From: Eledone cirrhosa
Lineage: Eukaryota
Reading direction: 5' to 3'
Length of the DNA stretch: 64,000 nucleotides
Assembly (NCBI GenBank): GCA_964016885.1
Contig: OZ024741.1
Span: 290,718,001-290,782,000 of the forward strand
Shown: piece by piece, positions 19,937 through 60,669 of the stretch
Numbering within the stretch: position 1 is the stretch's first letter
How the letters are laid out: every line of letters begins with the position of its first letter
Position numbers and translations under genes: made by a program
Notes under the pieces: model-generated
Databases searched by the model: none
What the model was told of the DNA's origin: nothing
Seen by the model: the letters and a program-made list of their open reading frames with translations, nothing else

Positions 19937-20285
19937 TGTGTGTGCGTGCGTGTGTGTGTATGTGTGTGTGCGTGTGTGTGTGCGTGTGTGTGGGTATGCG
20001 CGCGTGAGTGTGTGTATGTGTGTGTGGGTGTGTGTGTGTGTGCGTGTGTGTGTGTGGGTATGTGCGCGTCAGTATGTGTATGTGTGTGTGGGTATGCGCG
20101 CGTCAGTGTTTGGGTGTGTGTGTGTGGGTATGCGCACGTGAGTGTGTGTATGGGTGTGTGTGTGTGTGTGTGTGTGTGGATGTGTGAGTGTATCGAATTG
20201 TACGTTTTCTATCCAATAACATCATCGTCAACAACCATTGCTTTTCAAGGTTTACGATTAAATGAGAAGAACGGGTGAATAAAGT

Positions 20286-22392
20286 CAACAGCCACCAAAG
20301 CAGCTTACCCGTGAGGGGCCTCAACAGCCACCAAAACAGCTCACCCGTGAGGGGCCTCAACAGCTACCAAAACAGCTCACCCGTGAGGAGCCTCAACAGC
20401 CACCAAAACAGCTCACCCGTGAGAGGGCCTCAACAGCCACCAAAACAGCTCACCCGTGAGAGGGCCTCAACAGCCACCAAAGCAGCTCACCCGTGAGAGG
20501 GCCTCAACAGCGACCAAAGCAGCTCACCCGTGAGGGGGCCTCAACAGCCACCAAAACAGCTCACCCGTGAGAGGGCCTCAACAGCCACCAAAGCAGCTCA
20601 CCCGTGAGAGGGCCTCAACAGCCACCAAAGCAGCTCACCCGTGAGGGGGCCTCAACAGCCACGAAAACAGCTCACCCGTGAGAGGGCCTCAACAGCCACC
20701 AAAACAGCTCACCCGTGAGAGGGCCTCAACAGCCACCAAAACAGCTCACCCGTGAGAGGGCCTCAACAGCCACCAAAGCAGCTCACCCGTGAGAGGGCCT
20801 CAACAGCCACCAAAACAGCTCACCCGTGAGAGGGCCTCAACAGCCACCAAAACAGCTCACCCGTGAGAGGGCCTCAACAGCCACCAAAGCAGCTCACCCG
20901 TGAGAGGGCCTCAACAGCCACCAAAGCAGCTCACCCGTGAGGGGGCCTCAACAGCCACGAAAACAGCTCACCCGTGAGAGGGCCTCAACAGCCACCAAAA
21001 CAGCTCACCCGTGAGAGGGCCTCAACAGCCACCAAAGCAGCTCACCCGTGAGAGGGCCTCAACAGCCACCAAAGCAGCTCACCCGTGAGGGGGCCTCAAC
21101 AGCCACCAAAACAGCTCACCCGTTAGAGGGCCTCAACAGCCACCAAAGCAGCTCACCCGTGAGAGGGCCTCAACAGCCACCAAAACAGCTCACCCGTGAG
21201 AGGGCCTCAACAGCCACCAAAGCAGCTCACCCGTGAGAGGGCCTCAACAGCCACCAAAGCAGCTCACCCGTGAGGGGGCCTCAACAGCCACCAAAACAGC
21301 TCACCCGTTAGAGGGCCTCAACAGCCACCAAAGCAGCTCACCCGTGAGAGGGCCTCAACAGCCACCAAAACAGCTCACCCGTGAGAGGGCCTCAACAGCC
21401 ACCAAAGCAGCTCACCCGTGAGAGGGCCTCAACAGCCACCAAAGCAGCTCACCCGTGAGAGGGCCTCAACAGCCACCAAAGCAGCTCACCCGTGAGAGGG
21501 CCTCAACAGCCACCAAAACAGCTCACCCGTGAGAGGGCCTCAACAGCCACCAAAACAGCTCACCCGTGAGAGGGCCTCAACAGCCACCAAAGCAGCTCAC
21601 CCGTGAGAGGGCCTCAACAGCCACCAAAGCAGCTCACCCGTGAGGGGGCCTCAACAGCCACCAAAACAGCTCACCCGTGAGAGGGCCTCAACAGCCACCA
21701 AAACAGCTCACCCGTGAGAGGGCCTCAACAGCCACCAAAACAGCTCACCCGTGAGAGGGCCTCAACAGCCACCAAAACAGCTCACCCGTGAGGGGCCTCA
21801 ACAGCCACCAAAACAGCTCACCCGTGAGAGGGCCTCAACAGCCACCAAAACAGCTCACCCGTGAGAGGGCCTCAACAGCCACCAAAGAAGCTCACCCGTG
21901 AGAGGGCCTCAACAGCCACCAAAACAGCTCACCCGTGAGAGGGCCTCAACAGCCACCAAAGCTGCTTACCCGTGAGGGGCCTCAACAGCCACCAAAGCAG
22001 CTCACCCGTGAGGGGGCCTCAACAGCCACCAAAGCAGCTCACCCGTGAGGGGGCCTCAACAGCCACCAAAGCAGCTCACCCGTGAGAGGGCCTCAACAGC
22101 CACCAAAGCAGCTCACCCGTGAGGGGGCCTCAACAGCCACCAAAGCAGCTCACCCGTGAGGGGGCCTCAACAGCCACCAAAGCAGCTCACCCGTGAGAGG
22201 GCCTCAACAGCCACCAAAGCAGCTCACCCGTGAGAGCGCCTCAACAGCCACCAAAGCAGCTCACCCGTGAGGGGCCTCAACAGCCACCAAAGCAGCTCAC
22301 CCGTGAGAGGGCCTCAACAGCCACCAAAGCAGCTCACCCGTGAGAGGGCCTCAACAGCCACCAAAGCAGCTCACCCGTGAGAGGGCCTCAAC
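20286..22392. repeat. 37-bp minisatellite, about 57 copies
   Basis: Unit GGGCCTCAACAGCCACCAAA(A/G)CAGCTCACCCGTGAG(A/G), highly homogeneous. Confidence 0.97.
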
Positions 22393-22474: not shown

Positions 22475-23375
22475 ATGGGTGGCTGGGTGGCTGGGTGGCT
22501 GGGTGGCTGGGTGGCTGGGTGGCTGGGTGGTTGGTGGCTGGGTAAATGGGTGGCTGGGTGACTGGGTAGCTGGGTAGCTGGTGGACTGGGTGGCTGGGTG
22601 GCTGGGAGACTCGCTGGCTGGGTTGCTGGGTAGCTGGGTGGCTGGGGGACTAGGTGGCTGGGTGGATGGGTGGCTGGTGGCTGGGTGACTGGGTGGCTGG
22701 ATGGCTGGGTATTTGGGTAGCTGGTGGACTGGGTGACTGGGTAGCTGGGGGACTGGGTGGATGTGTAGGTGGGTAGCTGGGTAGCTGTGACTGGGTGGCT
22801 GGGTGGCTGGGTATGTGGGTAGGTGGGTAGCTGTGGGACTGGGTGACTGGGTGGCTGGGTGGCTGGGTAGCTGGGGGACTGGGGGGGATTGGTAGGTGGG
22901 TAGCTGGGTAGCTGTTGGACTGGGTGGCTGGGTGGCTGGGTGGCTGTGTGGATGGGTGGCTGGGTTGCTGGGTAGCTGGGTGGCTGGGGGACTGGGTAGC
23001 TGGGTTGCTGGGTAGCTGGGTGGCTGGGTGGCTGGTGGCTGGGTGACTGGGTGGCTGGGCGGCTGAGTAGCTGGGTAGCTGGTGGACTGGGTGACTGGGT
23101 GGCTGGGTATGTGGGTAGGTGGGTAGCTGTGGGACTGCGTGACTGGGTGGCTGGGTGGCTAGGTAGCTGGGTGGCTGGTTAGCTGGGTAGCTGGTGGACT
23201 GGGTGGCTGGTAGTTGGGTGCTTGGGTGACTGGGTAGGTGGGGGAATGTGTGACTGGGTAGTTGGGTTCCTGGGTGGATGGGAGCCGGGTAGCTGGCGGA
23301 CTGGGTGGCTGCGTGGCTGGGTGGCTTGGAGGTTGGGAGGCTGTGTGGCTGGCAGGTTGGATGGCTGGGTTGATG
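22475..23375. repeat. Degenerate G-rich octamer array (GGGTGGCT/GGGTAGCT)n
   Basis: Directly visible; dense GGG runs. Confidence 0.95.
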
Positions 23376-32575: not shown

Positions 32576-32665
32576 AAAAATGTGGAGCGCTTCACAAATT
32601 TTCCTGTCATCCTTGCGCAGATATCCTACTAATCTATTGTTCCAATTTTAGAATCTGTACTGCCG
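32576..32665 (-). pseudogene. U6 snRNA pseudogene (5'-truncated, ACAGAGA box deleted)
   Basis: Minus strand cggcagtaca..ctaaaattggaacaata-gattag..ctgcgcaaggatgaca..aaatttgtgaagcgctccacattttt follows the conserved U6 sequence. Confidence 0.88.
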
Positions 32666-32698
<33 letters not shown>

Positions 32699-32732
32699 AA
32701 GAAGTGGTTACATAACAGTTAGTTCACCATAC

Positions 32733-32770
32733 CGAGAACAATTGTTTCCCCTTAGCGGATCCTCAACTCG
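32733..32770 (-). ncRNA. pLTR hammerhead, mutated copy (C3 to U)
   Basis: cgag-TTGAGGA-tcc(gctaa)ggg-GAAAC-aatt-GTT-ctcg. Confidence 0.65.
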
Positions 32771-32942
32771 TAATGGACATGGTTATACGGCACAGGAAGG
32801 AACACCTGTATGAACGCGCATGCGCAGAAACGGTCACTTCATTCAGACAATACTAAATTGCGTGCGAGAGGTGTAAGGGAGATAACTGCAAAAGTCCGAA
32901 ATTTTCTAGTTGATAAGAAAATTAGGATGTTGTTGTAATGAT

Positions 32943-34865
32943 TCAAACCGGAGATTTGTAGTTATGCAAGAGGTGTTTCGAGACGTGTGAACAACGTGTG
33001 AAAAATTCATTTCTCGTGTTTAGGCAATCACTATTGCATACTCTCTTTAGAATATTTATTCGTTCATCAATACATAGTCCACACGACGGATTTTCCCTTG
33101 CGTATGGCTTGGACTTGGTGATGGCTTTTCATTGAATGGAGTAGTCTATACTTGAGTCCTTGAGAGACCGTGCGTGGCTCGCGAGTTTCGTGGATGAACG
33201 TCTGTCCGGGTACCTAAAGGTCGAGTGGTGGTTCAGGAAGCGTTCCTTAAATCGGCCCTCCGCCATACCCACATATGATTTGACCTCCTGAGGTTGATTT
33301 GGTCGGTTGGAAGTGACCACAGCTTCATAAACTACAGCGGGTGTGTTGCATTGCTGTTGAAGGGGACAAGCTTCGGGCTTACGGCAAGAGTACCCTGGCG
33401 GGGTGTTGCTCTTAGGGCTGTTGGTGATGTGGGCCTTCATGTTCTTAGCGCAGGAGTATCCTAGTTTTACTTTGTGTCGGTTAAAGATGGAGCGGTATTT
33501 ATGACCTATAGGAAAGTGTCTATCTAAGAGGGCTAGAAATTGTTTGCCTACATTGGATTTAACGTTGAGTGAGAGAACCAGATAATTTGTCTATTGTTAC
33601 GCTTTCTTTTCTTATTTCTGTTGTTGTTAGTGGGAGAGTAAATGATAGGTTGCGAGAAGCCGCTGTTAGCTAACGCCGTGTTATATTAGAGTGCCGCTCT
33701 GTCAAAGATAGCCTTACTAGAGGAGAGGTTTGAGATTCTAGTACTGATATTATTTACGATGTTTCTAAAAACAGTGGGAGAGTAGCATGAGTCCTTGTGA
33801 ATGTAATTGAGTTTTTCGTTAAGCTTATGGAAGGGTCTGTAGGTGTGTGTGCGTAGGTCTAAATTAATGTTATAGAAATCTACGCTAGAGAGGTTGGTAG
33901 CTACTGTTATCCTAAGTCCTAACTCATTGAAGGTAGAAGCTAAGTCTTTTTTAAACCGGTCGAGGTCATGACCACTTTTATGGCTCGATAAGATCAGTCC
34001 ATCGTCGCGGTATATTCCCGTGTGGAAGTCCGGGAATCTAACACGTAATATGTCTAAAATAAATAGGCTAACCAAGTCGCATACGTCAGCACTATCAAAT
34101 GATCCCATGGAGACGTCGAACAGGTCTGAATTGTTGACTTCTGTGCCCAGGCTACTCCGTTGTTGAAGAGGAGGGTTTTCCGTCAGTGAGCGATGATTTC
34201 CCTGTCTAAACCATGGATGGTAGTGTAAGTGGTAGCAAAGTCCAACGCTTTGTTTAACAGGGTCTCTGAGATCGATGGGTAAAAATCAACAATGTCAAAC
34301 TGTGTGAACTTCGCTTTTTTTGGATTTGAAGGAGTTGAACCACTTAATTACGGAGTCGCTGTTTTCCCACTGGGACAGGTTGGACTTGGTCCTAATGGCC
34401 TTAACTATGTTTCTAAGTATGGCCTTACTGACTAGGCTCATATCAGTGCGTGCCGGGTTTAGTTGTCTACATGTGGGGTTAGAAGTAAAGTCTACCTTGT
34501 GATCTTTCAGGGTGATGAACGCCTCCCGCTTAGCTAGAGATTGTAGCTTCTTATCTACCTTAAGGGCGGCGGCAAGTTCTTTGGCTTCTGTATTAATGTC
34601 GTGGCAGGCCATAGAGTGAGCTTTCTTATATTTGGAAGTAATAGCGTTATGGGCCAATATTATTAGTTTTGTCTGAAAGAACGAAAGTGTAATTAGAAGA
34701 CCTAAATTTCTTAATATCTTTTCCTAAGTTTAGTTTGAAAGGTGTTAGGGTGTTTGCGAAAGGAAATGTTGGCGACTAAGTCAAGAAGGACCGCCTCGAA
34801 AGGAGCAAGTTCGGTTACCCTAGGAGGGTAGGCTCTCGATTTCAGGTTGAAGGTGTTACTGGTGC
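32943..34865 (-). pseudogene. Disrupted RT + GIY-YIG endonuclease ORF of the Penelope-like element
   Basis: ORF pieces 34711-34865, 34295-34657, 33686-34108 and 33129-33440 plus read-through to the stop at 32943; internal stops, deletions and frameshifts. Confidence 0.88.
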
Positions 34866-35190
34866 CTGTAATTTTGCCGTCGTGTGGACTATGCATTGAT
34901 GAACAAATAAATATTCTAAAGAGATTACGCAATAGCGATTGCCTAAACTCAAGAAATGAATTCTTCACACGTTGTCCACACGTCTGGAAACACATCTTAC
35001 ATAACTACAAAGCTCCGGATTGAATTACAACAACATCCTAATTATCTTATCAACTAGAAACTTGTGCACTTTCGCAGTTATCCCCTTACACCTCTCGCAC
35101 GCAATTTAGTATTGCCTGAGTGAAGTAACCGTTTCTGCGCATGCGCGTTCATACAGGTGTCCTTCCTGTTCCGTATAACCATGTCCATTA

Positions 35191-35228
35191 CGAGCTGAGG
35201 ATCCGCTAAGGTGAAACAATTGTTCTCG
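35191..35228 (+). ncRNA. pLTR type I hammerhead ribozyme
   Basis: cgag-CTGAGGA-tCC(gctaa)GGt-GAAAC-aatt-GTT^ctcg; palindromic ACAATTGT stem/loop III. Confidence 0.8.
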
Positions 35229-35339
35229 GTATGGTGAACTAACTGTTGTGTAACCACTTCTACCTAATTTGTCCCATGCACTGAGTGCTCTACCACTACG
35301 GATATTACCTTCCAGTGTTCTACCACTATATATATATGT

Positions 35340-36777: not shown

Positions 36778-37284
36778 CATATTGATATATACATATATAT
36801 TATATATACATATGTGTATTCGCGCAACAAAAAGCGGAGATTAGATTAAATAAATAATTGTTTCTACTATTGGAACAAGGCCAGCAATTACCCAGTGCAT
36901 TACTGGTACTTTATTTTATCGACCCCGTAAATAATGTTACTCCTTTATACTTTCCTGAAAAAACAAAACAAAAAAAAAAACGCAGGAAACCTTGCTGAAG
37001 CTGCTTAAATGATATACCTCACCCACATCTTTATACACTTACTCTGATCTTAAGCTCATAGATTAATTAATGATTATTTGGGGTTATTGGTGTTTCAGGG
37101 GATTAAACTTTAAAATGACGCTGATTATATGAAGATATGGTATTTTACTTTTCCGGATTATATCAAAGACTTGAAAATCCGGCATACGTTGCATATTGAG
37201 AATCTACATTGAATTCAAATTTACAGCTTAACTCTTTATGTACCTTCAGTATATGCATGCATGTACATATATAGGTATATATGA

Positions 37285-37319
<35 letters not shown>

Positions 37320-37558
37320 TAAGTTAAAAATGTACATCCACATATGTATACTGAAATACTAGTATGCATATGAATACACACACGTATACATATGTAGATG
37401 TACCGAGTTTTTCACTGGTCACTTTACTGTGAGTGTCCAGCTATTCTGTATGTAAACACACAGACAAACCGGTTTTTAGAGTCATAACTAATTTTCATAG
37501 AAAAAGCATATAACGATATGTGCTTTTACGATTCTCTAGAGAGGCCGGAAGATGGGTA

Positions 37559-37603
37559 AATATTGCTGATGAGATGTAACAACATCGAAACTAGTTCAAT
37601 ATT
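37559..37603 (+). ncRNA. Minimal type I hammerhead ribozyme, array unit 1
   Basis: aatattg-CTGATGA-GATGT(aaca)ACATC-GAA-AC(ta)GT-T^caatatt; predicted cut after 37596. Confidence 0.9.
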
Positions 37604-38024
37604 CCTTGTCTGGCTTTCTGGAGAATAGAGGAAAGGTGTTTCCTAAAAAACCAGTATGACTCTAAAAACCGGTTTGTCTGTGTGTTTACATACAGAATAG
37701 CTGGACACTCACAGTAAAGTGACCAGTGAAAAACTCGGTACATCTACATATGTATACGTGTGTGTATTCATATGCATACTAGTATTTCAGTATACATATG
37801 TGGATGTACATTTTTAACTTAATTGTTTAAGCGTCAGTCATACAAAAGTGAGTTACAAACGAAACGAAATTTAATTTCGTTTCGTTATTTGTTTTTATCG
37901 TCTCCGTTGAACCGGTACGTACTCACGCTCTATGCAAATTAGTCTGCCCACTACTAATTTTCATAGAAAAAGCATATAACGATATGTGCTTTTACGATTC
38001 TCTAGAGAGGCCGGAAGATGGGTA

Positions 38025-38069
38025 AATATTGCTGATGAGATGTAACAACATCGAAACTAGTTCAATATT
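38025..38069 (+). ncRNA. Hammerhead ribozyme, array unit 2
   Basis: Identical to unit 1. Confidence 0.9.
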
Positions 38070-38490
38070 CCTTGTCTGGCTTTCTGGAGAATAGAGGAAA
38101 GGTGTTTCCTAAAAAACCAGTATGACTCTAAAAACCGGTTTGTCTGTGTGTTTACATACAGAATAGCTGGACACTCACAGTAAAGTGACCAGTGAAAAAC
38201 TCGGTACATCTACATATGTATACGTGTGTGTATTCATATGCATACTAGTATTTCAGTATACATATGTGGATGTACATTTTTAACTTAATTGTTTAAGCGT
38301 CAGTCATACAAAAGTGAGTTACAAACGAAACGAAATTTAATTTCGTTTCGTTATTTGTTTTTATCGTCTCCGTTGAACCGGTACGTACTCACGCTCTATG
38401 CAAATTAGTCTGCCCACTACTAATTTTCATAGAAAAAGCATATAACGATATGTGCTTTTACGATTCTCTAGAGAGGCCGGAAGATGGGTA

Positions 38491-38535
38491 AATATTGCTG
38501 ATGAGATGTAACAACATCGAAACTAGTTCAATATT
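38491..38535 (+). ncRNA. Hammerhead ribozyme, array unit 3
   Basis: Identical to unit 1. Confidence 0.9.
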
Positions 38536-38956
38536 CCTTGTCTGGCTTTCTGGAGAATAGAGGAAAGGTGTTTCCTAAAAAACCAGTATGACTCTAAAAA
38601 CCGGTTTGTCTGTGTGTTTACATACAGAATAGCTGGACACTCACAGTAAAGTGACCAGTGAAAAACTCGGTACATCTACATATGTATACGTGTGTGTATT
38701 CATATGCATACTAGTATTTCAGTATACATATGTGGATGTACATTTTTAACTTAATTGTTTAAGCGTCAGTCATACAAAAGTGAGTTACAAACGAAACGAA
38801 ATTTAATTTCGTTTCGTTATTTGTTTTTATCGTCTCCGTTGAACCGGTACGTACTCACGCTCTATGCAAATTAGTCTGCCCACTACTAATTTTCATAGAA
38901 AAAGCATATAACGATATGTGCTTTTACGATTCTCTAGAGAGGCCGGAAGATGGGTA

Positions 38957-39001
38957 AATATTGCTGATGAGATGTAACAACATCGAAACTAGTTCAATAT
39001 T
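38957..39001 (+). ncRNA. Hammerhead ribozyme, array unit 4
   Basis: Identical to unit 1. Confidence 0.9.
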
Positions 39002-39422
39002 CCTTGTCTGGCTTTCTGGAGAATAGAGGAAAGGTGTTTCCTAAAAAACCAGTATGACTCTAAAAACCGGTTTGTCTGTGTGTTTACATACAGAATAGCT
39101 GGACACTCACAGTAAAGTGACCAGTGAAAAACTCGGTACATCTACATATGTATACGTGTGTGTATTCATATGCATACTAGTATTTCAGTATACATATGTG
39201 GATGTACATTTTTAACTTAATTGTTTAAGCGTCAGTCATACAAAAGTGAGTTACAAACGAAACGAAATTTAATTTCGTTTCGTTATTTGTTTTTATCGTC
39301 TCCGTTGAACCGGTACGTACTCACGCTCTATGCAAATTAGTCTGCCCACTACTAATTTTCATAGAAAAAGCATATAACGATATGTGCTTTTACGATTCTC
39401 TAGAGAGGCCGGAAGATGGGTA

Positions 39423-39467
39423 AATATTGCTGATGAGATGTAACAACATCGAAACTAGTTCAATATT
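39423..39467 (+). ncRNA. Hammerhead ribozyme, array unit 5
   Basis: Identical to unit 1. Confidence 0.9.
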
Positions 39468-39888
39468 CCTTGTCTGGCTTTCTGGAGAATAGAGGAAAGG
39501 TGTTTCCTAAAAAACCAGTATGACTCTAAAAACCGGTTTGTCTGTGTGTTTACATACAGAATAGCTGGACACTCACAGTAAAGTGACCAGTGAAAAACTC
39601 GGTACATCTACATATGTATACGTGTGTGTATTCATATGCATACTAGTATTTCAGTATACATATGTGGATGTACATTTTTAACTTAATTGTTTAAGCGTCA
39701 GTCATACAAAAGTGAGTTACAAACGAAACGAAATTTAATTTCGTTTCGTTATTTGTTTTTATCGTCTCCGTTGAACCGGTACGTACTCACGCTCTATGCA
39801 AATTAGTCTGCCCACTACTAATTTTCATAGAAAAAGCATATAACGATATGTGCTTTTACGATTCTCTAGAGAGGCCGGAAGATGGGTA

Positions 39889-39933
39889 AATATTGCTGAT
39901 GAGATGTAACAACATCGAAACTAGTTCAATATT
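39889..39933 (+). ncRNA. Hammerhead ribozyme, array unit 6
   Basis: Identical to unit 1. Confidence 0.9.
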
Positions 39934-40833
39934 CCTTGTCTGGCTTTCTGGAGAATAGAGGAAAGGTGTTTCCTAAAAAACCAGTATGACTCTAAAAACC
40001 GGTTTGTCTGTGTGTTTACATACAGAATAGCTGGACACTCACAGTAAAGTGACCAGTGAAAAACTCGGTACATCTACATATGTATACGTGTGTGTATTCA
40101 TATGCATACTAGTATTTCAGTATACATATGTGGATGTACATTTTTAACTTAATTGTTTAAGCGTCAGTCATACAAAAGTGAGTTACAAACGAAACGAAAT
40201 TTAATTTCGTTTCGTTATTTGTTTTTATATATATATATATAAATTTGTAATTCCTGTCTGTTTGTTTGTTTGTTTGTTCACGAACTCCTATGGTTTTGGA
40301 GATAGAGCCCCATAACTATATATATTCTGAAACGACATTGCCGAGGGTACTTGGATAAGTATATTTCATCTTCATCAAGGGGTTCCCCGGGGGCACAAAA
40401 CCCCGCTGAAATATTTTTCCCTTTGATTTATATGAAATTTAAACCATAGGTAAATGACAAGATATGATGCCTATTCACAACATTTTTGAATTGATATTCT
40501 GAAAAAACGTATTTACAAGACACAAATAAGAATAAGATTTGATAATGTAATATTGATTTGATATATTACAAAGAATAATGTTTTCCATTTTTCATGCATT
40601 ACATTTTTACATTGAGTAATATTGAAATGCAGAGTTTTTCTCCATAAATTGATTTAAAATCAATCATCATTTTCTTACCAAAAAAAAAAAAAAAATGTGT
40701 GAAACATTTTTTTTTTTTTTTGGTAAGAACAGGAACTGTACGATCGCGTAAGTCTAAATTCCCACATAGAAACCCATACATCAACGCATACATCAACGCA
40801 TAAGAACAAACGCGCACCCACATATACATACAG

Positions 40834-48863: not shown

Positions 48864-49429
48864 TGTATGTATGTATGTATGTATGTATGTATGTATGTAT
48901 GTATGTATGTATGTATGTATGTATGTATGTATGTACGTACGTACGTACGTACGTACGTACGTATGTATGTATGTATGTATGTATGTATGTATGTATGTAT
49001 GTATGTATGTATGTATGTATGTATGTATGTACGTGCGTGCGTACGTACGTATGTATGTATGTATGTATGTATGTATGTATGTATTCATGTATGCATGTAT
49101 GTATGTATGTATGTATGTATGTATGTATGTATGTATGTATGTATTTTTTTTAATGCGCGGGGACATAGAAATAGTCGGGCTGGATACCCGATCACGAAGT
49201 TAAACCACTGGATGTGAAGAACACATAGCCCTTGTCAGGGCATTCTTCTAGGAGAAGGCATCTCAGGAAACTGGGTTAACTCCGACATGAAACCTGCGGC
49301 TCAGTAGTTACCGATGATGTTGATCTTTACTTCTTTTCGGGTTATAGCTACTGTCACTTAGAGAGTGGGATTGGCTCAGTGCACAGTCTTTCCTCACTTC
49401 AAAAATATTCGTCACGCACAGGCATTGCA

Positions 49430-52400
49430 CGATTGCATTTCCTTTTTCGGAGAGGCTTGGATCTCGCGATATGGGCCATCTTCCTAGACCCAGAAGGTAA
49501 GTCGGTGGTGCTGGACGTGACCGGCAGCAAAGGCAATGCTTTCAGGCTAGTAGCCGTCTACGCTCCAACAGGGGAAGGACGGCCAGATTTCTTCAGACGT
49601 CTGGAGACCTTTTTTGGAACGTCCCGCTCTTTAGTGTTAGTGGGCGACTGGAACGGTATCTTGGATGCACGCTGGGATCGTGTGGGGCTAGTGGATAGGG
49701 GAGGAGGGTGCAAGAGCCTCACCAACCTGCTCAGACGTTTTGAACTGTCTGACAGGTATCGACTGGATCACCCGAATGTGCCAATGTGGACATGGACAAA
49801 CCGCATCGAGTCATCCAGATCGTATCTCGATAGGGTATTCTGCAGAGAACTAGATAAGGCTAGTATAAGTTGTCCACAATTTAAAATAGTCGACTACACG
49901 GACCACAAATTTGTGATCTGTGAGATCGACATAGACTAACTTCATAGACAAGGGCCTGGTTACTGGAAGCTGAACGCGTCTTTCCCGGCGCGCAAAGTCT
50001 ACAGAGACCGGATTAGCATATTAGTTAAGCGGGCGTTGACGGGAGCGGTCGTCAACAACAGGTGGTGGTTCGCCCTGAAAAGGGCAATTAAAGTAGAGTC
50101 GATTAGGTTTAGCAAAGGAGTAGTGATAGAGGAAAATAGAGTAGAGGGAGAGCTAGTCAGAAAGCTAGAGGAGGCGTTTAGGACAGGCATCGCAACCGAC
50201 GTGCTTGCGGCGAGATTGGCCCTCGACCAATTCTTCAACGCAAAACACGAAGGCTGCGTTCTCAGAGCTAGAGCGAGTGCTCTGAAACATGAGGGGACAA
50301 AAGCCGTCCAATGGGCCCGGGTGGCAGAATAGCGACGTGGCAACAAAGCCACAATTCGGTCTTTGTCTGACCAAAACGGATGCGTGATGCTCGAACCCGA
50401 GCGGATGTGTGAAGCTTTTCAGCAGCACTTTACTGAACTGTTCGGGAGCGGCGGCCCGGATCGGGACATGGATTTCAGTGCATACTTCGACGGACTTCCT
50501 CGGCCCTCGACGACCGCAGCACAGTGTTGCGAAAAGCCAATAACAGCCGGTGAAATACGGGAAGCGATGGCTAACTGCACAAGGGGTAAATCGCCAGGTT
50601 TGGATGGTCTGCCCTACGAGCTTTATGCATTTATGACAGACTTGTTCGGTGACCTCTTGGCAAACGTCTACTGCAACTGGCAGCAGAACGGGAGCATTCC
50701 CAGTTTCGTGAGCCAGGGAGCAGTGGAGCTGCTGAGAAAAGACCCGAACAAGAGGGATGTTATCGATAATTTCAGGCCCATAACCCTGCTAAACGCAGAG
50801 TTCAAGATTTTGACCAAGGTATTAGCAACGAGGTTGGCGCTTGTCGTCAAGGGTCTGGTGGGAGAGGCGCAGACATGCACCATTCCGGACAGATCCATAC
50901 ACGACAACCTCCACCTCATGCGATACATCATAGAGAGGGTGGTTAAGGAACCTGGCACGAGTGCGGCCCTGATTAACTTGGATCAATCCAAAGCATTCGA
51001 TAGGGTCGACCATCGGTATCTGGCGGCGGTCCTCGAGGCAGCCGGTTTCGGGCCCGTTTTCAGGGGTTGGATGGCAGCAATGTACAGCGACATCTGCTAA
51101 GTTGTGAGGGTGACCGGTCACCTGTCGCAGCCGTTCAGCATCATGCGCTCAGTCCGCCAGGGTTGTCCCCTCTCGTCCCTCTTGTACGTATTAGCTCTCG
51201 AGCCGTTACTGCACAAACTGGGGGCGATGAAGGGCGTCCCACGCAAACTAGGATGCGGGAAATCCGAGTCGGCTTACGCTGACGACGTCACCGTGGTAGT
51301 GTCGAGCACCAGACACGTCCAGATGCTCGGCACCGCTCTCAAGGAATACGAAGCGGTGACAGGAGCAAAGATAAACCAGGAAAAGTCAGTGGACTTGCAG
51401 CTCGGCACCTCGAGAGGCAAGTCCATGCTGTCCGACAACGTCGTGGGGCGTTGGACGGACGGACTGCTTAAATTGCTCGGGGTCTGGTTCGGACCGAACC
51501 TCCAGATGGAGAAAAACTGGAACGAGGTGACGAGCAGGGTGGCCTCCTTCACCCAGGAATGGGCCGAGAGGAAGCTGTCCCTGAAAGGCCGAGCGGAGCT
51601 GGCGAATGCGTACATCACATCCGTCATCTGCTACCGCCTCGCCGTCGTCCCTTGCTCCAGCCCAACTCTCACCAAAATGGAGCGCCTCCTCTTCCGCTTT
51701 TTGTGGAAGGGACGCACTCCCATGGTTCAGACGATCCATCTGCTGTCAACACCCGTTGCGTGGAGGACTGGGCATGCCATGGCTGATGATGCACAAACAT
51801 GCGCTGAGGCTGCGACATCTCTGGTGCTTCCTTGATGGTGAACAGGTGTGGTCGCCGTTCGCCAGGCACGTTTTCCCACAGCTCGTCTCCTTGACGGAGC
51901 TGCAGTCCTGGGTCAGAAAAAGAACGAGGGATAGCGCTTGGAGACTGGAATGTCTCCAGGCGCTCACTGCCCTCTGCCAGTTGGACACCAGTATCGGTGG
52001 AACATCCATCTCGGCGTTCTATAGAGGACTAGTGGAGGGGAAGAGCGACGACATTCTCGGAGAGATCCTGGGCGTCGAAGAAGATCAGCTGTTTGCTCTC
52101 TTCCGGAGAACTTTCAGCTCAGGGCCTATGGATAACTTCCAAAAATTCCTGGCCTGGCAGTGCTACCGGAGAGCGCTGCCGTTTCGAGATAAGCTATACA
52201 GGCACGGAAGTGCCGTCAGCCGAGCCTGTCCGAGATGCGCGCAGAGCGACGAAACCTCGGAGCTATATCGAACAGTTGCTGTCGAGTGTGGGACTGATCC
52301 GGTTATCGACTGAGTCCATTGTGCAGATGGTCTCGCCGTCTTCCTTCGAGGAGGAAGGGCAGGCGGTTTTCATCTGCCTGGTGGCCATGGCGAAAGAGAT

Positions 52401-52950
52401 TGTGTGGTGGACATGTTAAAAGGGTTAAAGACAGACACTTTCTTCTTCGGCGAATCCCTAATTAACTTTTTCAAGTTTCACTTGAAGAAGAAAATCAGGG
52501 TGGAGATGGAAGTGCTGCCTTCTAGCAAGTTTGTTGAAATGTGGGTGAATGTAGCGAGAATGGTCCGAGTGAATGGGACCACTCTGAATATATGTCTGTA
52601 GTTAGAGAGATGGAAAAATTGAGAGAGGGCGCTTGCCCTGGTGATCAGGGTGGCCGTGGTCTTTTGTGTGGTTTTCGCCACGAGTAACCCTCGGAGCCCC
52701 CCCCCCCTCTATTGGGGAATTTTTCATTGTTTCAATTTTCATTTTTATTGTTTATATATATATATGTTTCTATGTCCTTTTTTTTCTTTTCTTATATAAA
52801 TAATAAAAATATTTACACGCACAAAACCCACATCGTACCGTCCTGTGCCGTCTGTAATGTTTTTCTTGATGTCAGTCCTTGTGGCCAATAAAGAAATCAT
52901 TAATTTATAATTATTAATAGTGTATTATTATTATTATTATTATTATTATT
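49430..52950 (+). mobile_element. Tx1/L1-clade LINE, 5'-truncated ORF2 (APE endonuclease, RT, Cys-rich end), 3' UTR and (ATT)n tail; inactive
   Basis: VAVYAP, LVGDWN, SYLDRV, YTDHK (EN); KSPGLDG, FRPITLLN, DQSKAFDRVDH, RQGCPLS, AYADDV (RT); CPRC; in-frame stops at ~49937, 50330 and 51098. Confidence 0.95.
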
Positions 52951-53548
52951 GAATGCCATGGTTGACGGGTTCTCGGCTCTGTAAGGTATTGTAAATTTAA
53001 ACCTCTATAACAATTGTAAATTGTTTAAAACTTTAACCCGATTGTAGACAAAAACACCCACCTCCTCGTGAGAGGGGTCTTTCTGTCTGTTATTTGGCCC
53101 TTCGGGTTTAAATAACCGCTTATTAGGGTTTTGTGCTCAATATTTATTTTAAACCAAAAAAAACATGGCTACAAAAAAGAATTTTCACAAGTCACTCCCA
53201 CTCATTCCGTCTTCTTCTTCCTCAATCGTCGCTACACCAGGGAGAAGATTGTCTCTCCCCCTCCCTTCTCTAAATGTGGCTCTCCCTCCCTTCTCTTTCG
53301 CAAGCGACACCAGTAAAGAAAAATATAGTTTCTGATAGTTTCTAAGACCACGTGCAAACTGAGGAACATTTCTCCATGACGACGACAACGACGAAACATG
53401 TGTGCGGTAAATACGGAAACCCATTTCATTCGTCTGACGTCAAGAATAATAGCAGTAGCAGCCGTAATAACAGCAGCAGCAGCAGCAGCAACAGTGACAA
53501 GGAAAACAATAGTAATAGCCTCAACAGCATCAGCAGCAGCATAAACAA

Positions 53549-53590
<42 letters not shown>

Positions 53591-56500
53591 CAACAACAAC
53601 AGCAGCAGCAACAACAACAACAATCACAGCAACAGCGGCGGCGGCAGTAGTCGTAGTACCAGCAGCAACAACAAAAGTAACAGCAGCTGTGACGACAACA
53701 ACAACAACAACAGCAAAGAAAAACCAATCTCGTTTGCAGGTATCGCAAAGAACCTGGAAACCATCCTCATAACAAATGAGGAAATACAGGAAGCAAAGAA
53801 GATGGTGACGAAAACCGGACACCGAGCAATCTGCAAGGCAGCCGAAAAGTTTTTCGAAATCCAACAGCACTGTACGGTCACGTACCGTACAGTAAGCACA
53901 AAATTCCGTAGGGTTGAAAGAGCCACAGAGGCTCAAATTCAAAAAGCCTTAGGGTCTGTGTGGCAGCGGAAAACGCATATCACCCGAGGCAAGAAATATG
54001 CCACCGTAGACGTGCTTTTTGCCATACCCCAGGAGGAAAATGCTCAATCCTTGGTGACCCTAAGGAGCGAGGAAATGGTGTTGGTGCCCTCCTACTGCGG
54101 GCAAAAAATTGTGAGCGTCAAACTTGACCAATTCTTCAATGCAAAGCACGAAGGCTGCGTTGTCAGAGCTAGGGTGCGTGCTCTCAGACACGAGGGGACG
54201 AAAGCCGTTCAATGGGCCCAAGTGGCGGAGGCGCGTCGTGGCAACAAAGCCACGATCCGATCTTTGGTGGACCACGATGGGCGCATGCTACTCGATCCCG
54301 GGCAAATGTGTGAAGCTTTTCAACGACACTTCGCACAGCTGTTCGGGGGCAGCGGCAGGCCGGATCGAGGGATGGACTTTAGTGTCTACCTCGACGGACT
54401 GCCGCGGCTCTCAGCCACTGAGGCGGAGTGTTGCGAAAAGCCGATAACAGCCGCTGAAGTACGGGAGGCAATGACTGGCTGCACAATGGGTAAATCGCCT
54501 GGTTTGGATGGTCTGCCCTATGAACTTTTCGTACGGATGCCAGACTTGTTCGGAGGCCTTTTGGCGGACGTCTACTGCAACTGGCAAAAGAACGGGAGAA
54601 TTCCCAGCTCTGTGGGCCGAGGAGCTGTGGCACTGCTGAGAAAGGATCCGAACAAGGGGGATAACATAGATAATTTCAGGCCCATAACAATGCTAAACAC
54701 AGAGTTCAAGATTTTGGCCAAGGTGCTAGCAAATAGGTTGACGCTTGTCGTTGGTGGTTTGGTGGGAGAGGCGCAGACATGCGCCATTCCCGATAGATCC
54801 ATCCACGACAACCTCCACCTCATGCGATACATCGTAGAGAGGGTAGCTAGGGAACCTGGCACGGGTGCGTCCTTGATCAATTTAGATCAGTCGAATGCTT
54901 TCGAGAGGGTCGACCATCGTTACCTAGCGGCAGTCCTGAGGGCGGCTGGCTTTTGGCTCGTCTTCAGAGGCTGGATCGCTGCCATGCACAGCGACATCTG
55001 CTCTGTGGTGAGAGTGAACGGTCACCTTTCGGAACCGTTTAACATCATGCGCTCGGTCCGCCAAGAATGTCCCCTCTCGTCCCTCTTGTACGTATTGACT
55101 CTCGAACCATTACTGCACAAACTGGAGACGTTGAGGGGGTCCCGCGCGAACTAGGATGCGGAAGATCCGTGTCAGCATATGCGGACGATGTCACCGTAGT
55201 GGTGTCGAACGCCAAACACATCGAGGCGATCGGCACTACACTAAGAGAATACGAAGCGTGACAGGAGCAATGATCAACCAGGAAATGTCAGTGGGCCTGC
55301 AGCTTGGCACCTGGAGAGGCAGGTCCATGCCATCCAACAGCGTCGTCGGGCGTTGGACGGACGGACCGCTTAAATTGCTTGTTCGGTCCGGACCTCCAGA
55401 CGGACAAAAACCGGGACGAGGTGACGAGCAGGGTGGCTTCTCTCACCCAGAAATGGGCCGAGAGGAAGCTATCCCTGAAAGGTCGAGCGGAGGTGGCTAA
55501 CGCGTATATCGCGTCCGTCATCTTCTACCGCCTGACCGTCGTACCTTGTCCTAAGCCCCGCCTGACTGCGCTGGAGCGTTTGCTCTTTCGCTTTTTGTGG
55601 AAAGGACGCGCTCCGATGATCAGGCGGTCCATCTGCTGTCAACACCCGCTACGTGGAGGACTAGGAATGCCGTGGCTGATGATGCGCAGACACGCGCTCA
55701 GGCTACGACATCTCCACCTCTTCCTCGACGGTGATCAGGTGTGGTCTCCGTTTGCTAGAGGCGTCTTTCCCCAGCTCGTCTCCTTGACGGAGCTGCAGTC
55801 CTGGGTCAAGCGAAGACCGAGAGGGAGCGCTTGGAGACTGGAATGTCTTCAGGCGCTCACAGCCCTCGACCAATCGGGCAATGTGATCGGTGGAAACTCC
55901 ACCTTGGCGTTCTATAGAGGATTAGTGGAGGGGAAGAGCGACGACGTACTTGGGGAAACTCTAGGCGTCGACGAAAATCAACTAGCCAATCTCTTCGGAA
56001 GAACTTTCGGGCCGGGGTCTATGGACAACTTCCAGAAATCCCTGGCCTGGCAGTGCTACCGAGGAGCTTTGCCAGTTCGGGATAAACTCTACAGGCATGG
56101 AGGTGCCGTCAGCCGGGCATGTCCGAGATGCGCGCAGGGCGACGAAACCGTCCTGCACGCACTCGTCCAGTGTCCGAGCATTGCTGACTTGTGGGTTTAT
56201 GTCGAACACCTGTTGTCGTGTGTAGAACGGATCCGACTATCAGCTGAGTCCATCGTGAGGTAGCCCCGCCCTCTTCCTTTAGCCGGGAAGGGCAGGCCGG
56301 TTTTATCTGTCTGGTGGCCATGGCAAAAAAGATAGTATGGTGGACACGTTTGAAAGGGCTGAAGACGAGCACTTACCTCTTCGGTGATGCCCTGATTAAC
56401 TTTTTCAAATTTCATTTGAAAAGGAAAATCAGGGTAGAAAGGGAATTGCTCTCTTCCCAGCATTTTGTTGAAAGATGGGTGAGAGAGGCAAGAATGGCCC

Positions 56501-57069: not shown

Positions 57070-60000
57070 CCCAATTCAATGATGTTCCAAAACAATATAA
57101 AAGAGACCTTTGGCAATAAAGGTTCTGGAACAAAAGAAATATTTGGCAATAAGGGCAGGGACCCAAGGTTATCACAGCCTGGGCCCGCTCGTCATCGTGC
57201 CACTGTAATAAAGCCAAACAAGGCATTTAGTATTGGCTGCTGGAACGTACGGACGCTGCTTGACAGGGATTCCTTGGAGCGTCCTGAACGAAGGACCGCT
57301 CTTGTTGCAAAGGAGCTTCGACGTTACGATCTTGACATCGTCGCTTTATCTGAGACCAGGTTAGCTGGAGAATGTCATCTTACAGAATTTTGTTAAGACT
57401 GTTCTTGTGAATAAATTAGAAGAATTCCCAGTAGGGATTAGTGAGCGTCTTATGTCCATGACAATTCCGCTGGACAAAGGAAGATATGAGACCCTGGTGA
57501 GTGTGTATGCTCCAACTATGAATTCTGTCGATGAAGAAAAAGTGTCCTTTTACCATGCCTTGAAAGGTGTTTTAAGAAATATCCCTCAGGCAGATAAAGT
57601 CATCGTGCTTGGTGACTTTAATGCTAGAGTGGGTAGGGATTTTAACACATGGAATGTAATCGGAAGGCATGGGGTGGGAAAGTGTAACAACAATGGTATG
57701 CTCCTGCTGCAGATGTGTGAGGAGATGGATCTGTGTGTTACCAACACCATGTTCCAACAAAAGAACACATTTAAGACCACATGGATGCATCCTCCATCTA
57801 AGGAATGGCATCTTTTGGACTACGTCCTAGTCAGGATGCGCGACAGACAGGATGTGCAGTGTGTTCGTGCTCTTCGTGGAGCTGAGTGCTGGACGGACCA
57901 CCGCCTGGTACGCGCAAAAGTGAAACTAATCCCTAAACGTAAAATCCGGGCTCCTGGTGTTGCCCTGCCCAGAAGAATGAATGCTGCTCGTCTTAGGGAT
58001 AAAAATCTGAAGAGGACATTGCAAGAAGAGATGCAGGTTGCAGATCTTGGTGAAGATTGGCCGACCCTTAAAAAGTCGGTTTATGATACAGGCAGGCGTG
58101 TTCTGGGATTGGTGAAGAGAAAACATCAAGACTGGTTTAATGAGAATGATGAACATATAGAAGACTTGTTGGCTGACAAGAGGCGTGCTCTGTCACGCTA
58201 CTTGACGGCAAAACCACAGGAGAAGAATATGTTGCATAAGGAACTCAATGATGTGAAATCACGTGTTAGGCGCAGTCTTTCTCAGATGAAGGATCAGTGG
58301 TGGAGTGAGAAGGCTGATGAGATACAAACTGCGTCAGATTCCAATAATACAAAGCTGTTGTACAGTCTCTTGCGTGAAGTTTATGGACCGTCTTCTTCTC
58401 TGGTGACTCCGCTTCGCAGCAAGGATGGCAAAGAACTTCTTCGTGACTCACAAGGAATTCTACGAAGGTGGCGAGAGCACTTTCATGAGCTTTTGAATCA
58501 ACCGTATCTGTCGTCAATGAAGATTTCCTCAATCTCATCCCAGAAAGTCCTGTGAAAGTAGTTCTCGCAGAACCTCCGACGCTTGTGGAGGTTGCAGTGG
58601 CTATCTCGAAGCTGAACAGTGGAAGGTCTCCAGGTGTGGATGGCATACATGCTGAGCTCCTACAATATGGTGGTGAGAGAGTCTTGCAACATCTTCACTC
58701 TTTGTTTGGCAGGATATGGGCTAATGATTCCATACCTGAGGACTGGAGAGATGCAGTAATGGTGGTCCTGTACAAGAGAAAGTGTAACAGGAATGATTGT
58801 GGGAACTACAGAGGTATATCATTGCTTTCTGTCGTAGGGAAAGTTATATGTAGCGTGCTTCTGGACCGTCTGCTGACACACATTGCAGATTGTGTTCTTC
58901 CTGAAAGTCAATCTGGTTTTTGTGCTGGACGCGGCACTACTGATATGATCTTCTCAGCTAGACAGCTCCAGGAGAAGTGCACGGAACAAGGTTTGGATCT
59001 GTATCAGGTTTTTGTCGATCTGACAAAAGCTTTCGATACTGTTAACAGAAATGCATTATGGAAGGTTCTCCAGAAACTTGGTTGCCCTGATAATTTCCTT
59101 GCTTTAGTTAGGTCTTTCCATGACAACATGAAGGCTTGGGTTAATGTCGGAGGTAACATGTCGGAGCCTATCTCAGTAAAAAATGGAGTGAAACAGGGGG
59201 ATATTCCAGCACCGACCCTGTTTGCCATATACTTTGCAATGGTTTTCTGTATTGCATTCAGGAATTGCGAGCATGGTGTTTACATCCGCTATCGAACCTC
59301 AGGCAGCATATTTAACATCAGGCTCTTTGCTGCAAAAACAAAAGTAGTTACATCAATCATAAGAGACCCCTTGTATGCAGATGATTGCGATCTTGTAACG
59401 CACACAGAGAGTGATATGTAGCACATTTTGAATGCATTTTCTGATGCTTGCACTGCCCTAGGATTGACTGTCAGTCTCAAGAAAACCATCGTCATGTACC
59501 AACCTGCCCCTAGTAAGCAGTACATTGAACCAAATATCTATGTGTATGGTAAACGACTTGGAGTGGTTGATCAGTTTGTCTACCTCGGAAGCACTGTCAA
59601 TCGATACAGCAGCCTTGATAATGAAATCCCACTCAGGATTAGGAAAGCAAGTGATTCTCTCGGAAAGCTAGAAAGGCGACTCTGGGGTCGGCGAGATATA
59701 TGCTAGAAGACAAAGGTAAAGGTGTACAAGGCATGTGTGCTCTCTTCTCTTCTTTATGCCTGCGAGACCTGGGTCACATATCGACACCACCTTAAGCAAT
59801 TGGAGCGTTTCCATCAGATGTGTCTCAGACGGATCCATGGCGTTCACTGGAGGGACCACATCAGTGATGTCGAGATTTTGGAAAGCTCTATGTGTGGCAG
59901 TATAGAAGCTCTTGTGCTTAAGCAACGACTCCGTTGGAGTGGTCACCTTACCAGGATGAAGGATTCTAGAATACCAAAACAACTCTTTTATGGAGAGTTA

Positions 60001-60380: not shown

Positions 60381-60669
60381 AACAACCCATTGAGGAACTG
60401 TGCATATCAGAGTATTGACAAAGTTAAACACCTCAACAACATGTGTACTCGTCTCTACCACACTAATTCGGACTGCCTGAAGAGGTCACAGCCAATGATG
60501 GTTGTCACCGAAATATATATAGCAGTAATAAACGAAGCCAAATTTTTAACATTTGACTTATTTATTTTATTTTATTTTACATTACTCCGGAGTAACAAAA
60601 CCAACCTGCGCACTTCGTCGAGTGTTCCAATCTGCATACTGAGGCGTTGGTATACAACCAACATATACT

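What the first reader, a model, noticed from the sequence alone, without database searches (positions are those of the whole stretch)
37315..40228. Rolling-circle-like array of a 466-nt hammerhead RNA (retrozyme) integrated into (TA)n with a Penelope-style 5' inversion
Seen: six identical minimal type I hammerheads spaced exactly 466 bp apart (predicted cuts after 37596, 38062, 38528, 38994, 39460, 39926); units look identical by eye; no ORF of 60 aa or more; the array starts and ends mid-unit; a 172-bp inverted copy of part of the unit sits at the 5' end; (TA)n lies on both sides. Established: metazoan non-LTR retrozymes are tandem type I HHR repeats that yield circular RNAs and are proposed to be mobilised by Penelope-like elements; HHRs with a 2-bp palindromic stem III (here ACUAGU) typically cleave as dimers. 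Inference: a single integration produced by an RT circling a 466-nt circRNA about six times, with the inversion and TA target being a Penelope-machinery footprint. A multimeric transcript would self-process back to monomers, giving a self-amplifying non-coding RNA replicon.
Basis: partly seen in the sequence, partly recalled or inferred. Interest (0 to 1): 0.92.

Follow-up and report, generated by a model that had tools for sequence, protein, structure and literature searches.

The report
Hammerhead retrozyme copied in both directions
This is one of about two thousand genomic copies of a 466-base non-coding repeat that carries a hammerhead ribozyme motif, and most copies have two back-to-back arms with fixed outer ends in TA repeats, which is the footprint expected if a Penelope-type enzyme likely copied an RNA circle round and round from both ends of a DNA break.

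Summary
Window 37487-40228 is a 100%-identical 466-bp array with six type I hammerheads, preceded by a 172-bp inverted piece and flanked by (TA)n. It belongs to a large family: 1,980 exact ends and 9,235 ribozyme cores in this 3-Gb genome. The '5' inversion' is a second arm. Most loci are two divergent arms whose outer ends are fixed at unit positions 302 and about 230, each abutting (TA)n (41 of 60 loci picked on one end only). Either arm may hold many units. The arms of one locus share a haplotype (0.5% apart, against 5.1% between loci). 35 haplotypes occur among 42 multi-unit loci, and inner ends do not pile up at the ribozyme cut. The same two-end, 70-nt 'tail' pattern marks Hydra-type Penelope elements here and a 59%-identical sister family. 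Best reading: a non-LTR retrozyme, inserted by Penelope-type priming at both ends of a break, likely on a circular monomer. The class and the circle hypothesis are published. No RNA, cleavage or partner enzyme was shown. The ribozyme is canonical, not minimal.

The parts
37267..37314 (.). Left (TA)n target tract
37315..37486 (-). Short inverted arm, unit positions 230 down to 59; its outer end is at the family's first fixed site (about 228-233)
37486..37487 (.). Central junction of the two arms, blunt here and variable among loci
37487..40228 (+). Long arm: 5.9 identical 466-bp units, from unit position 357 to the fixed outer end at 302
37551..37610 (+). First of six canonical type I hammerheads (repeated every 466 bp); predicted cut after GUU at 37596; palindromic CUAG helix III, predicted to work as a dimer
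   Evidence: PMC4209133
37597..38062 (+). One monomer, cut site to cut site: the predicted 466-nt linear or circular RNA, non-coding and strongly self-paired
40157..40228 (+). 'Tail': unit 231-302, the 72 nt between the two fixed ends, with a 13-bp hairpin; present at one outer end only
40229..40241 (.). Right (TA)n target tract (short)

Best explanation
This locus is one insertion of a non-coding, hammerhead-bearing retrozyme family, made of two divergent arms with fixed outer ends in (TA)n, and it was likely written by a Penelope-like element (PLE) enzyme that primed from both ends of a DNA break on a circular 466-nt RNA. Shown: the array, the family, the two fixed ends 72 nt apart, the TA target, and matching haplotypes in both arms. 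Inferred steps: (1) an array is transcribed, and neighbouring hammerheads cut as dimers into 466-nt monomers; (2) a host ligase closes the monomer into a circle, which a dimer-dependent ribozyme would not re-cut; (3) a PLE protein, probably of the Hydra clade, cuts both strands of (TA)n; (4) one DNA end primes at unit position 302 and the other at about 230, and each cDNA runs round the template until it falls off (median about 660 nt); (5) the two cDNA ends are joined in the middle by microhomology or end-joining. Here one cDNA went round almost six times and the other stopped after 172 nt. Some long arrays were later enlarged at the DNA level.
For: Fixed outer ends in TA: 1,980 at 302 and 1,147 at about 230, controls 0. 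Short-read contigs of run X1 show the same two ends. 41 of 60 loci picked only on the 302 end have an inverted ~230 end abutting TA. 62 of 89 loci are two-armed. The arms are symmetric (medians 663 and 659 nt; both exceed one unit in 23 of 50). Arm-to-arm divergence is 0.49% within a locus and 5.1% between loci; the own arm is nearest in 40 of 53. There are 35 haplotypes among 42 multi-unit loci, 0.31% within against 3.8% between, and 8 of 42 loci have alleles fixed in all copies and seen in no other sampled locus (7 on both arms). This requires repeated passage through one unit followed by re-expansion. Inner ends are not enriched at the cut site (5 of 122 within 10 nt, 5.2 expected), so cleaved linear RNA is not the main template. 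Overlap of 3 nt or more at 16 of 61 junctions, 6.7% by chance. Inherited changes hit 0 of 11 ribozyme core positions against 127 of 465 overall (p=0.04); 4 of 4 double changes keep pairing. A PLE family in this genome with Hydra-type motifs has the same two ends about 70 nt apart in (TA)n. A 59%-identical sister family ends at the homologous two sites. A purified PLE protein cuts and extends both strands and starts at two internal sites that define the tail (PMC11167929).
Against: No circle, transcript or cleavage was observed. No partner with shared sequence was found: the unit does not match the PLE loci tested, and none of the 60 loci has an ORF between its arms. In vitro, the PLE used uncleaved linear RNA as its main template (PMC11167929). 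Only 1 of 9 predicted Xenopus retrozyme dimers cleaved (bioRxiv 10.64898/2026.07.22.740005). 43 minority variants recur within a locus (238 are singletons), with periodic patterns in L038, L043, L057, L117 and the ~70-unit C1 array, and a haplotype switch in L044: a monomer circle alone does not explain these. In L109 two variants are shared by the outermost segments of both arms, as a heterogeneous multimer template predicts (4 of 107 tests, one locus). The own arm is not nearest in 13 of 53 loci. The ribozyme as a whole is not significantly more conserved than the rest of the unit (p=0.09). 12 of 60 junctions are near-symmetric (5.3 expected, p=0.005), which also fits fold-back.
Confidence: 0.6

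Rival explanations
1. The same PLE double priming, but the usual template is an uncleaved linear (or circular) multimer transcribed from an existing array; circles are rare or play no part.
For: Uncleaved RNA was the main substrate in vitro (PMC11167929). Arrays long enough to be parents exist (~70 units on C1; about 31 units at C1:5.74 Mb). Outer-mirrored variants in L109, alternating units in L038 and a mosaic in L044. An uncleaved template would also give no pile-up at the cut site.
Against: It cannot by itself fix new alleles in every unit of both arms: 35 haplotypes in 42 loci, several with no internal difference. Template heterogeneity is mirrored between arms in only 1 of 48 loci. Arrays could only shorten from parent to daughter. 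The ribozyme core is conserved among inherited haplotypes.
Confidence: 0.2
2. Only one end primes on RNA; the cDNA then folds back at an internal hairpin and copies itself to make the second arm (self-priming, as proposed for rotifer PLEs).
For: It explains arm identity directly. 12 of 60 junctions are near-symmetric and several sit on the unit's hairpin. Palindromic junctions were read as self-priming in PMC3846280.
Against: 34 of 60 junctions are offset by more than 60 nt. Either arm can be much the longer (L130: 3,188 against 41 nt), yet the other still ends at the opposite fixed site. Centre-mirrored variants occur in only 2 of 128 tests (one locus). Both-strand extension at two sites is shown in vitro (PMC11167929).
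Confidence: 0.1
3. Short insertions of about one unit were expanded and homogenised later at the DNA level (unequal crossover, gene conversion), as satellite DNA is.
For: This route is favoured in bioRxiv 10.64898/2026.07.22.740005. Periodic variants in the longest arrays show that it happens.
Against: Multi-unit arms in both orientations share private alleles. Most internal variants are unshared singletons (238 against 43), so arrays look uniform at birth and decay afterwards. Many loci have no single arm long enough to seed a crossover in register. Arm lengths fall off smoothly and alike on both sides.
Confidence: 0.07
4. The six identical units are an assembly or polishing artefact.
For: The 100% identity; no long reads were laid.
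Against: Unit counts and haplotypes vary from locus to locus. The head-to-tail joint is in independent short-read contigs, and the window's alleles are minority alleles there.
Confidence: 0.03

Closest known systems
Metazoan non-LTR retrozymes (PMC7229834; PMC7761336; bioRxiv 10.64898/2026.07.22.740005)
   Same: Tandem non-coding units with a canonical type I hammerhead, GC below 45% (36% here), dimers to large multimers, a self-paired monomer, co-occurrence with PLEs; proposed circRNA template and PLE mobilisation.
   Different: The unit (466 nt) is at or just above the 150-450 bp range of PMC7229834, though inside the 51-972 bp of the preprint. The parts I read describe no fixed ends, no tail, no divergent multi-unit arms and no (TA)n target. 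PMC7761336 states that metazoan repeats show no motif pointing to their mobiliser; here the two ends do.
EN+ Penelope-like elements, Hydra clade in particular (PMC8557442; PMC3846280; PMC11167929)
   Same: An inverted 5'-truncated copy, a tail on one end only, hammerheads, insertion into (TA)n, and two internal start sites.
   Different: No ORF. The tail is about 72 nt, against 30-40 bp in the papers (about 70 nt in this genome's own Hydra-type family). The hammerhead is canonical rather than minimal. Whole arms are made of identical short units.
Non-autonomous Chlamys elements such as MRC1 (PMC8557442)
   Same: [quoted passage not shown]
   Different: They resemble their autonomous partner at the 3' end and mostly lack canonical hammerheads; here there is a conserved hammerhead and no partner with shared sequence was found.
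L1 twin priming (recalled, no call)
   Same: Both ends of the target prime cDNA, giving an inverted arm.
   Different: In L1 the second primer anneals at a variable site upstream on a linear RNA and the two parts do not overlap. Here both sites are fixed, and both arms cover the same sequence repeatedly.

Membership tests
Non-LTR retrozyme | [quoted passage not shown] | tested here: met
Non-LTR retrozyme | No protein-coding capacity; GC below 45-50% | tested here: met
   Longest frame 57 aa, GC 35.8%
Non-LTR retrozyme | Canonical type I architecture (helix I about 6 bp with bulge, helix II 4 bp, short palindromic helix III) | tested here: met
   against the definition in PMC4209133; compensatory A-U to U-A change in helix II
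Non-LTR retrozyme | Highly self-paired monomer | tested here: met
   z=-10.8, 0 of 100 shuffles fold as well; 4 of 4 double changes keep pairing
Non-LTR retrozyme | Dispersed, mobile copies | tested here: met
   At least 1,980 ends; copies on many contigs
Non-LTR retrozyme | Self-cleavage | not testable with these tools
   Predicted from the motif and core conservation only
Non-LTR retrozyme | Expression as linear and circular monomers | tested here: inconclusive
   No holder on record as RNA was listed; the runs laid were contigs of unrecorded kind
PLE-mobilised element | Inverted truncated copy plus a tail at one end (two start sites) | tested here: met
PLE-mobilised element | AT-rich or (TA)n target | tested here: met
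PLE-mobilised element | Sequence shared with the pLTR of an autonomous partner | tested here: inconclusive
   None in 18 loci of one Hydra-type family or in the hammerheads of other PLE fragments. Only a small part of 32,514 candidate PLE places was examined.
Autonomous PLE | ORF with RT and GIY-YIG endonuclease | tested here: not met
   No ORF in the unit or between the arms of the 60 loci
Minimal PLE-type hammerhead (min-HHR) | No helix III/loop 3, long helix II, short helix I | tested here: not met
   PMC4209133

The most novel reading that the evidence does not exclude
Both ends of one DNA break prime on the same circular RNA molecule, at two fixed sites 72 nt apart, and two reverse transcriptases roll round it in tandem. 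The roughly 2,000 loci are then a genomic record of two-ended rolling-circle retrotransposition of a ribozyme circle by a Hydra-clade PLE enzyme, in a family that evolves as a lineage of circles rather than as satellite DNA.
Probability: 0.4. Interest if true: 0.82.

Novelty: new member of a known kind. Interest (0 to 1): 0.58.

Why it matters
That animal retrozyme circles are reverse-transcribed into tandem DNA by Penelope enzymes has been a hypothesis since 2014-2020. In the papers I read it rests on co-occurrence and sequence kinship, and a 2026 preprint leans to DNA-level amplification. This family supplies insertion-level evidence: defined start sites, a target, a tail that matches PLE biochemistry, and arrays that look uniform at birth. 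It makes the question directly testable with a 466-nt template, a (TA)n target and a candidate enzyme clade. If true, it shows circular RNA writing itself into an animal genome, and an enzyme that integrates concatemers from a circle at both ends of a break.

Tried and rejected
Rfam at gathering scores found no hammerhead; the weak miRNA and sRNA hits reflect hairpins and were dismissed. RNA evidence: no RNA holder listed. Runs X4-X6 hold the unit at low depth in organisms B-D; a 496-nt contig in X6 closes on itself, but a tandem repeat gives the same, so it is not counted. Partner search: Pfam found nothing in the three PLE fragments of the window. The unit had no similarity to 18 loci of that PLE family except separate retrozyme insertions nearby. 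PLE fragments near retrozyme loci were separate insertions with other hammerheads. One pattern for a third family with this ribozyme style gave 0 matches. An apparent excess of arms ending at the cut site vanished when a concatemer query was used. The invariance of the 13 nt before position 302 (0 of 13) is not counted, because 60 loci were chosen on that sequence. Target-site duplications cannot be read inside (TA)n. Earlier-findings look-ups returned nothing. The Lünse 2017 dimer paper was not held. Supplements of the bioRxiv preprint and of the PMC papers (for example Fig. S9 of PMC7229834) were not seen and may show arm structures. The host was not identified; 'octopus' in one search was my guess from genome size and TA richness and comes from no call.

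Full report
Observation. The stretch is as described. Window 37487-40228 repeats with a period of 466 and no mismatch; six hammerhead cores lie at 37566+466n; the predicted cut follows GUU at 37596+466n; 37315-37486 is the exact reverse complement of unit positions 59-230 (position 1 = the base after the cut, 37597); (TA)n flanks both sides; the longest open frame round the unit is 57 aa. Rfam gives the HH9 model E=7.6e-7 but below its gathering score. The monomer folds far better than shuffles (z=-10.8). One correction: helix I of 6-7 bp with a UAA bulge, helix II of 4 bp with a UAACAA loop and a 1-2 bp palindromic helix III match the canonical metazoan type I hammerhead of PMC4209133 (passages read), not the minimal form. 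That paper notes that such ribozymes cut as dimers in multimers and are spared in monomeric circles.

Family. The window lies in a 3.0-Gb assembly. The unit gave 217 matches in 40 scored of 147 candidate places. Exact patterns found 9,235 ribozyme cores, 1,980 ends at unit position 302 running into TA and 1,147 ends at about 228-233 running into TA; each reversed-pattern control gave 0. Short-read contigs of run X1 show loose ends going into ATAT at the same two places, 37898 and 38290.

Architecture. I took 29 loci from the best matches (biased to close, full units) and 60 loci on contig C1 chosen only by the 302 end, in listed order. In 41 of those 60 an inverted end at about 230 abuts TA. 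Four of the 19 others were cut by my 6-kb limit, and for two of these the missing end appears. Over 89 loci (window, 28 and 60; the 70-unit array left out), 62 have two divergent arms. In 50 loci with one end of each kind, the arms have medians of 663 and 659 nt, the 302 arm is longer in 30, both exceed one unit in 23 and both exceed two units in 7 (4 loci skipped for unresolved junctions; L102 and L103 are duplicates). The window is the lopsided case: 2,742 against 172 nt. Read from the target inwards, both arms are antisense to the ribozyme strand, as cDNA primed from each 3' end of a break would be. The central junction is variable: overlap of 3 nt or more in 16 of 61 (6.7% by chance), blunt in 7, extra bases in 24. 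Three of the 61 rows (L037, L074, L105) are hairpin self-matches rather than true second arms.

Link to Penelope-like elements. PLE insertions carry an inverted truncated copy and a 30-40 bp tail on one end (PMC8557442, passages and the Hydra section; PMC3846280, passages). A purified PLE protein cuts and extends both strands of AT-rich DNA and starts at two internal RNA sites that delimit the tail (PMC11167929, parts 1-2 of 4). This genome is rich in PLEs (32,514 candidate places). One family, with a decayed two-armed copy in the window at 32700-35337, has RWR, DKT and CxCX5C motifs, which PMC8557442 gives (as RWK, DKT, CxCX5C) for the (TA)n-targeting Hydra clade; I made no tree. Its copies end at two sites about 70 nt apart, in (TA)n. 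It shares no sequence with the unit, so it shows the mechanism, not the partner. A sister retrozyme family (2,732 candidate places; 303 of 516 aligned columns identical) ends at the homologous two sites: 13 of 20 loci show one, 9 of 20 the other, 5 of 20 a divergent pair within 3.4 kb.

Template. The two arms of a locus differ by 0.49% on average, against 5.1% between loci; the own arm is nearest in 40 of 53 loci with at least 100 shared positions (26 strictly). Among 42 of 88 loci with three or more copies over most of the unit there are 35 haplotypes, 0.31% divergence within and 3.8% between; 8 loci carry alleles fixed in all copies and absent from the other sampled loci, 7 of them on both arms; 238 minority variants are singletons and 43 recur. 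Arrays thus look uniform at birth, and the family must pass repeatedly through one unit and re-expand, which a circle does in one step. Cleaved linear templates would pile inner ends at the cut; 5 of 122 lie within 10 nt, 5.2 expected. Among inherited alleles, 127 of 465 positions vary but 0 of 11 core positions (p=0.04; whole ribozyme p=0.09). 41 of 75 inherited changes at predicted pairs keep pairing, against 61 of 176 within-locus changes, and 4 of 4 double changes are compensatory.

Against. No RNA, circle or cleavage was seen. The in vitro PLE preferred uncleaved RNA, and 8 of 9 predicted Xenopus dimers did not cleave (preprint, parts 1-3 of 5). Long arrays show periodic variants (L043, L057, L117, the ~70-unit C1 array), L038 alternates two unit types and L044 switches haplotype, so multimer templates or DNA-level expansion also occur. 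Across 48 loci, minority variants were mirrored from the outer ends in 4 of 107 tests (L109 only) and from the centre in 2 of 128 (L053 only); 12 of 60 junctions are near-symmetric (p=0.005), compatible with fold-back or with annealing at hairpins. About 90 of at least 2,000 loci were sampled, so unsampled homogeneous parent arrays cannot be excluded.

Comparison and novelty. By the testable criteria this is a non-LTR retrozyme (PMC7229834: Discussion and passages; PMC7761336: passages). The circle-to-tandem model and the PLE link are already proposed there and in the 2026 preprint. In eight literature searches and the parts read, I found no report of retrozyme loci with two fixed ends, two multi-unit arms and matched haplotypes; supplements and subscription journals were not seen. 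The element is a new member of a known kind. What it adds is insertion-level evidence for how the kind moves. Verdict: real, well supported as a PLE-mobilised retrozyme, rolling-circle template likely but unproven; interest 0.58.

Noticed in passing
window 32700-35337: Decayed PLE copy with Hydra-type motifs, ORF remnants on the minus strand (33075-34881). It has the same two-arm, two-end structure (ends about 70 nt apart) and its own small hammerhead.
   Followed up: partly
window 32576-32674 (-): U6 snRNA copy (56.7 bits) lacking its 5' end and with a 7-nt gap. It starts right after the short (CA)/(TA) tract that ends the PLE arm, and may be a retrocopy.
   Followed up: no
L036 4593-5060; L142-L161; L071; L135: Sister retrozyme family, about 485-nt unit with an internal variable (TA)n hairpin, 59% identical, 2,732 candidate places, with homologous fixed ends.
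   Followed up: partly
G000:C1:81846873-81880714 (L059-L062): Two-armed locus whose long arm has about 70 units with periodic variants: a retrozyme turning into satellite DNA.
   Followed up: partly
L038 2938-5539: Units alternate between two variant sets, as a circular dimer template or a two-unit duplication would give.
   Followed up: no
window 60472-60526 (+): Isolated hammerhead of another family, with a palindromic AT-rich helix III. Near-identical copies occur in L080, L089, L119 and L046; a rough scan found several more hammerhead families in the fetched loci.
   Followed up: no
window 20285-22392 and 22476-23370: A 37-bp minisatellite (57 copies, 96% match) next to an 8-bp TGGGTGGC array (113 copies).
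   Followed up: no
window 49280-56263 and 57365-59421: Decayed LINE-type endonuclease and RT frames (two related copies, then a different family); family names not tested.
   Followed up: no
L102 and L103 (G000:C1:55.97 and 55.99 Mb): Identical retrozyme locus with identical flanks 17.7 kb apart: a segmental duplication or an assembly duplicate.
   Followed up: no
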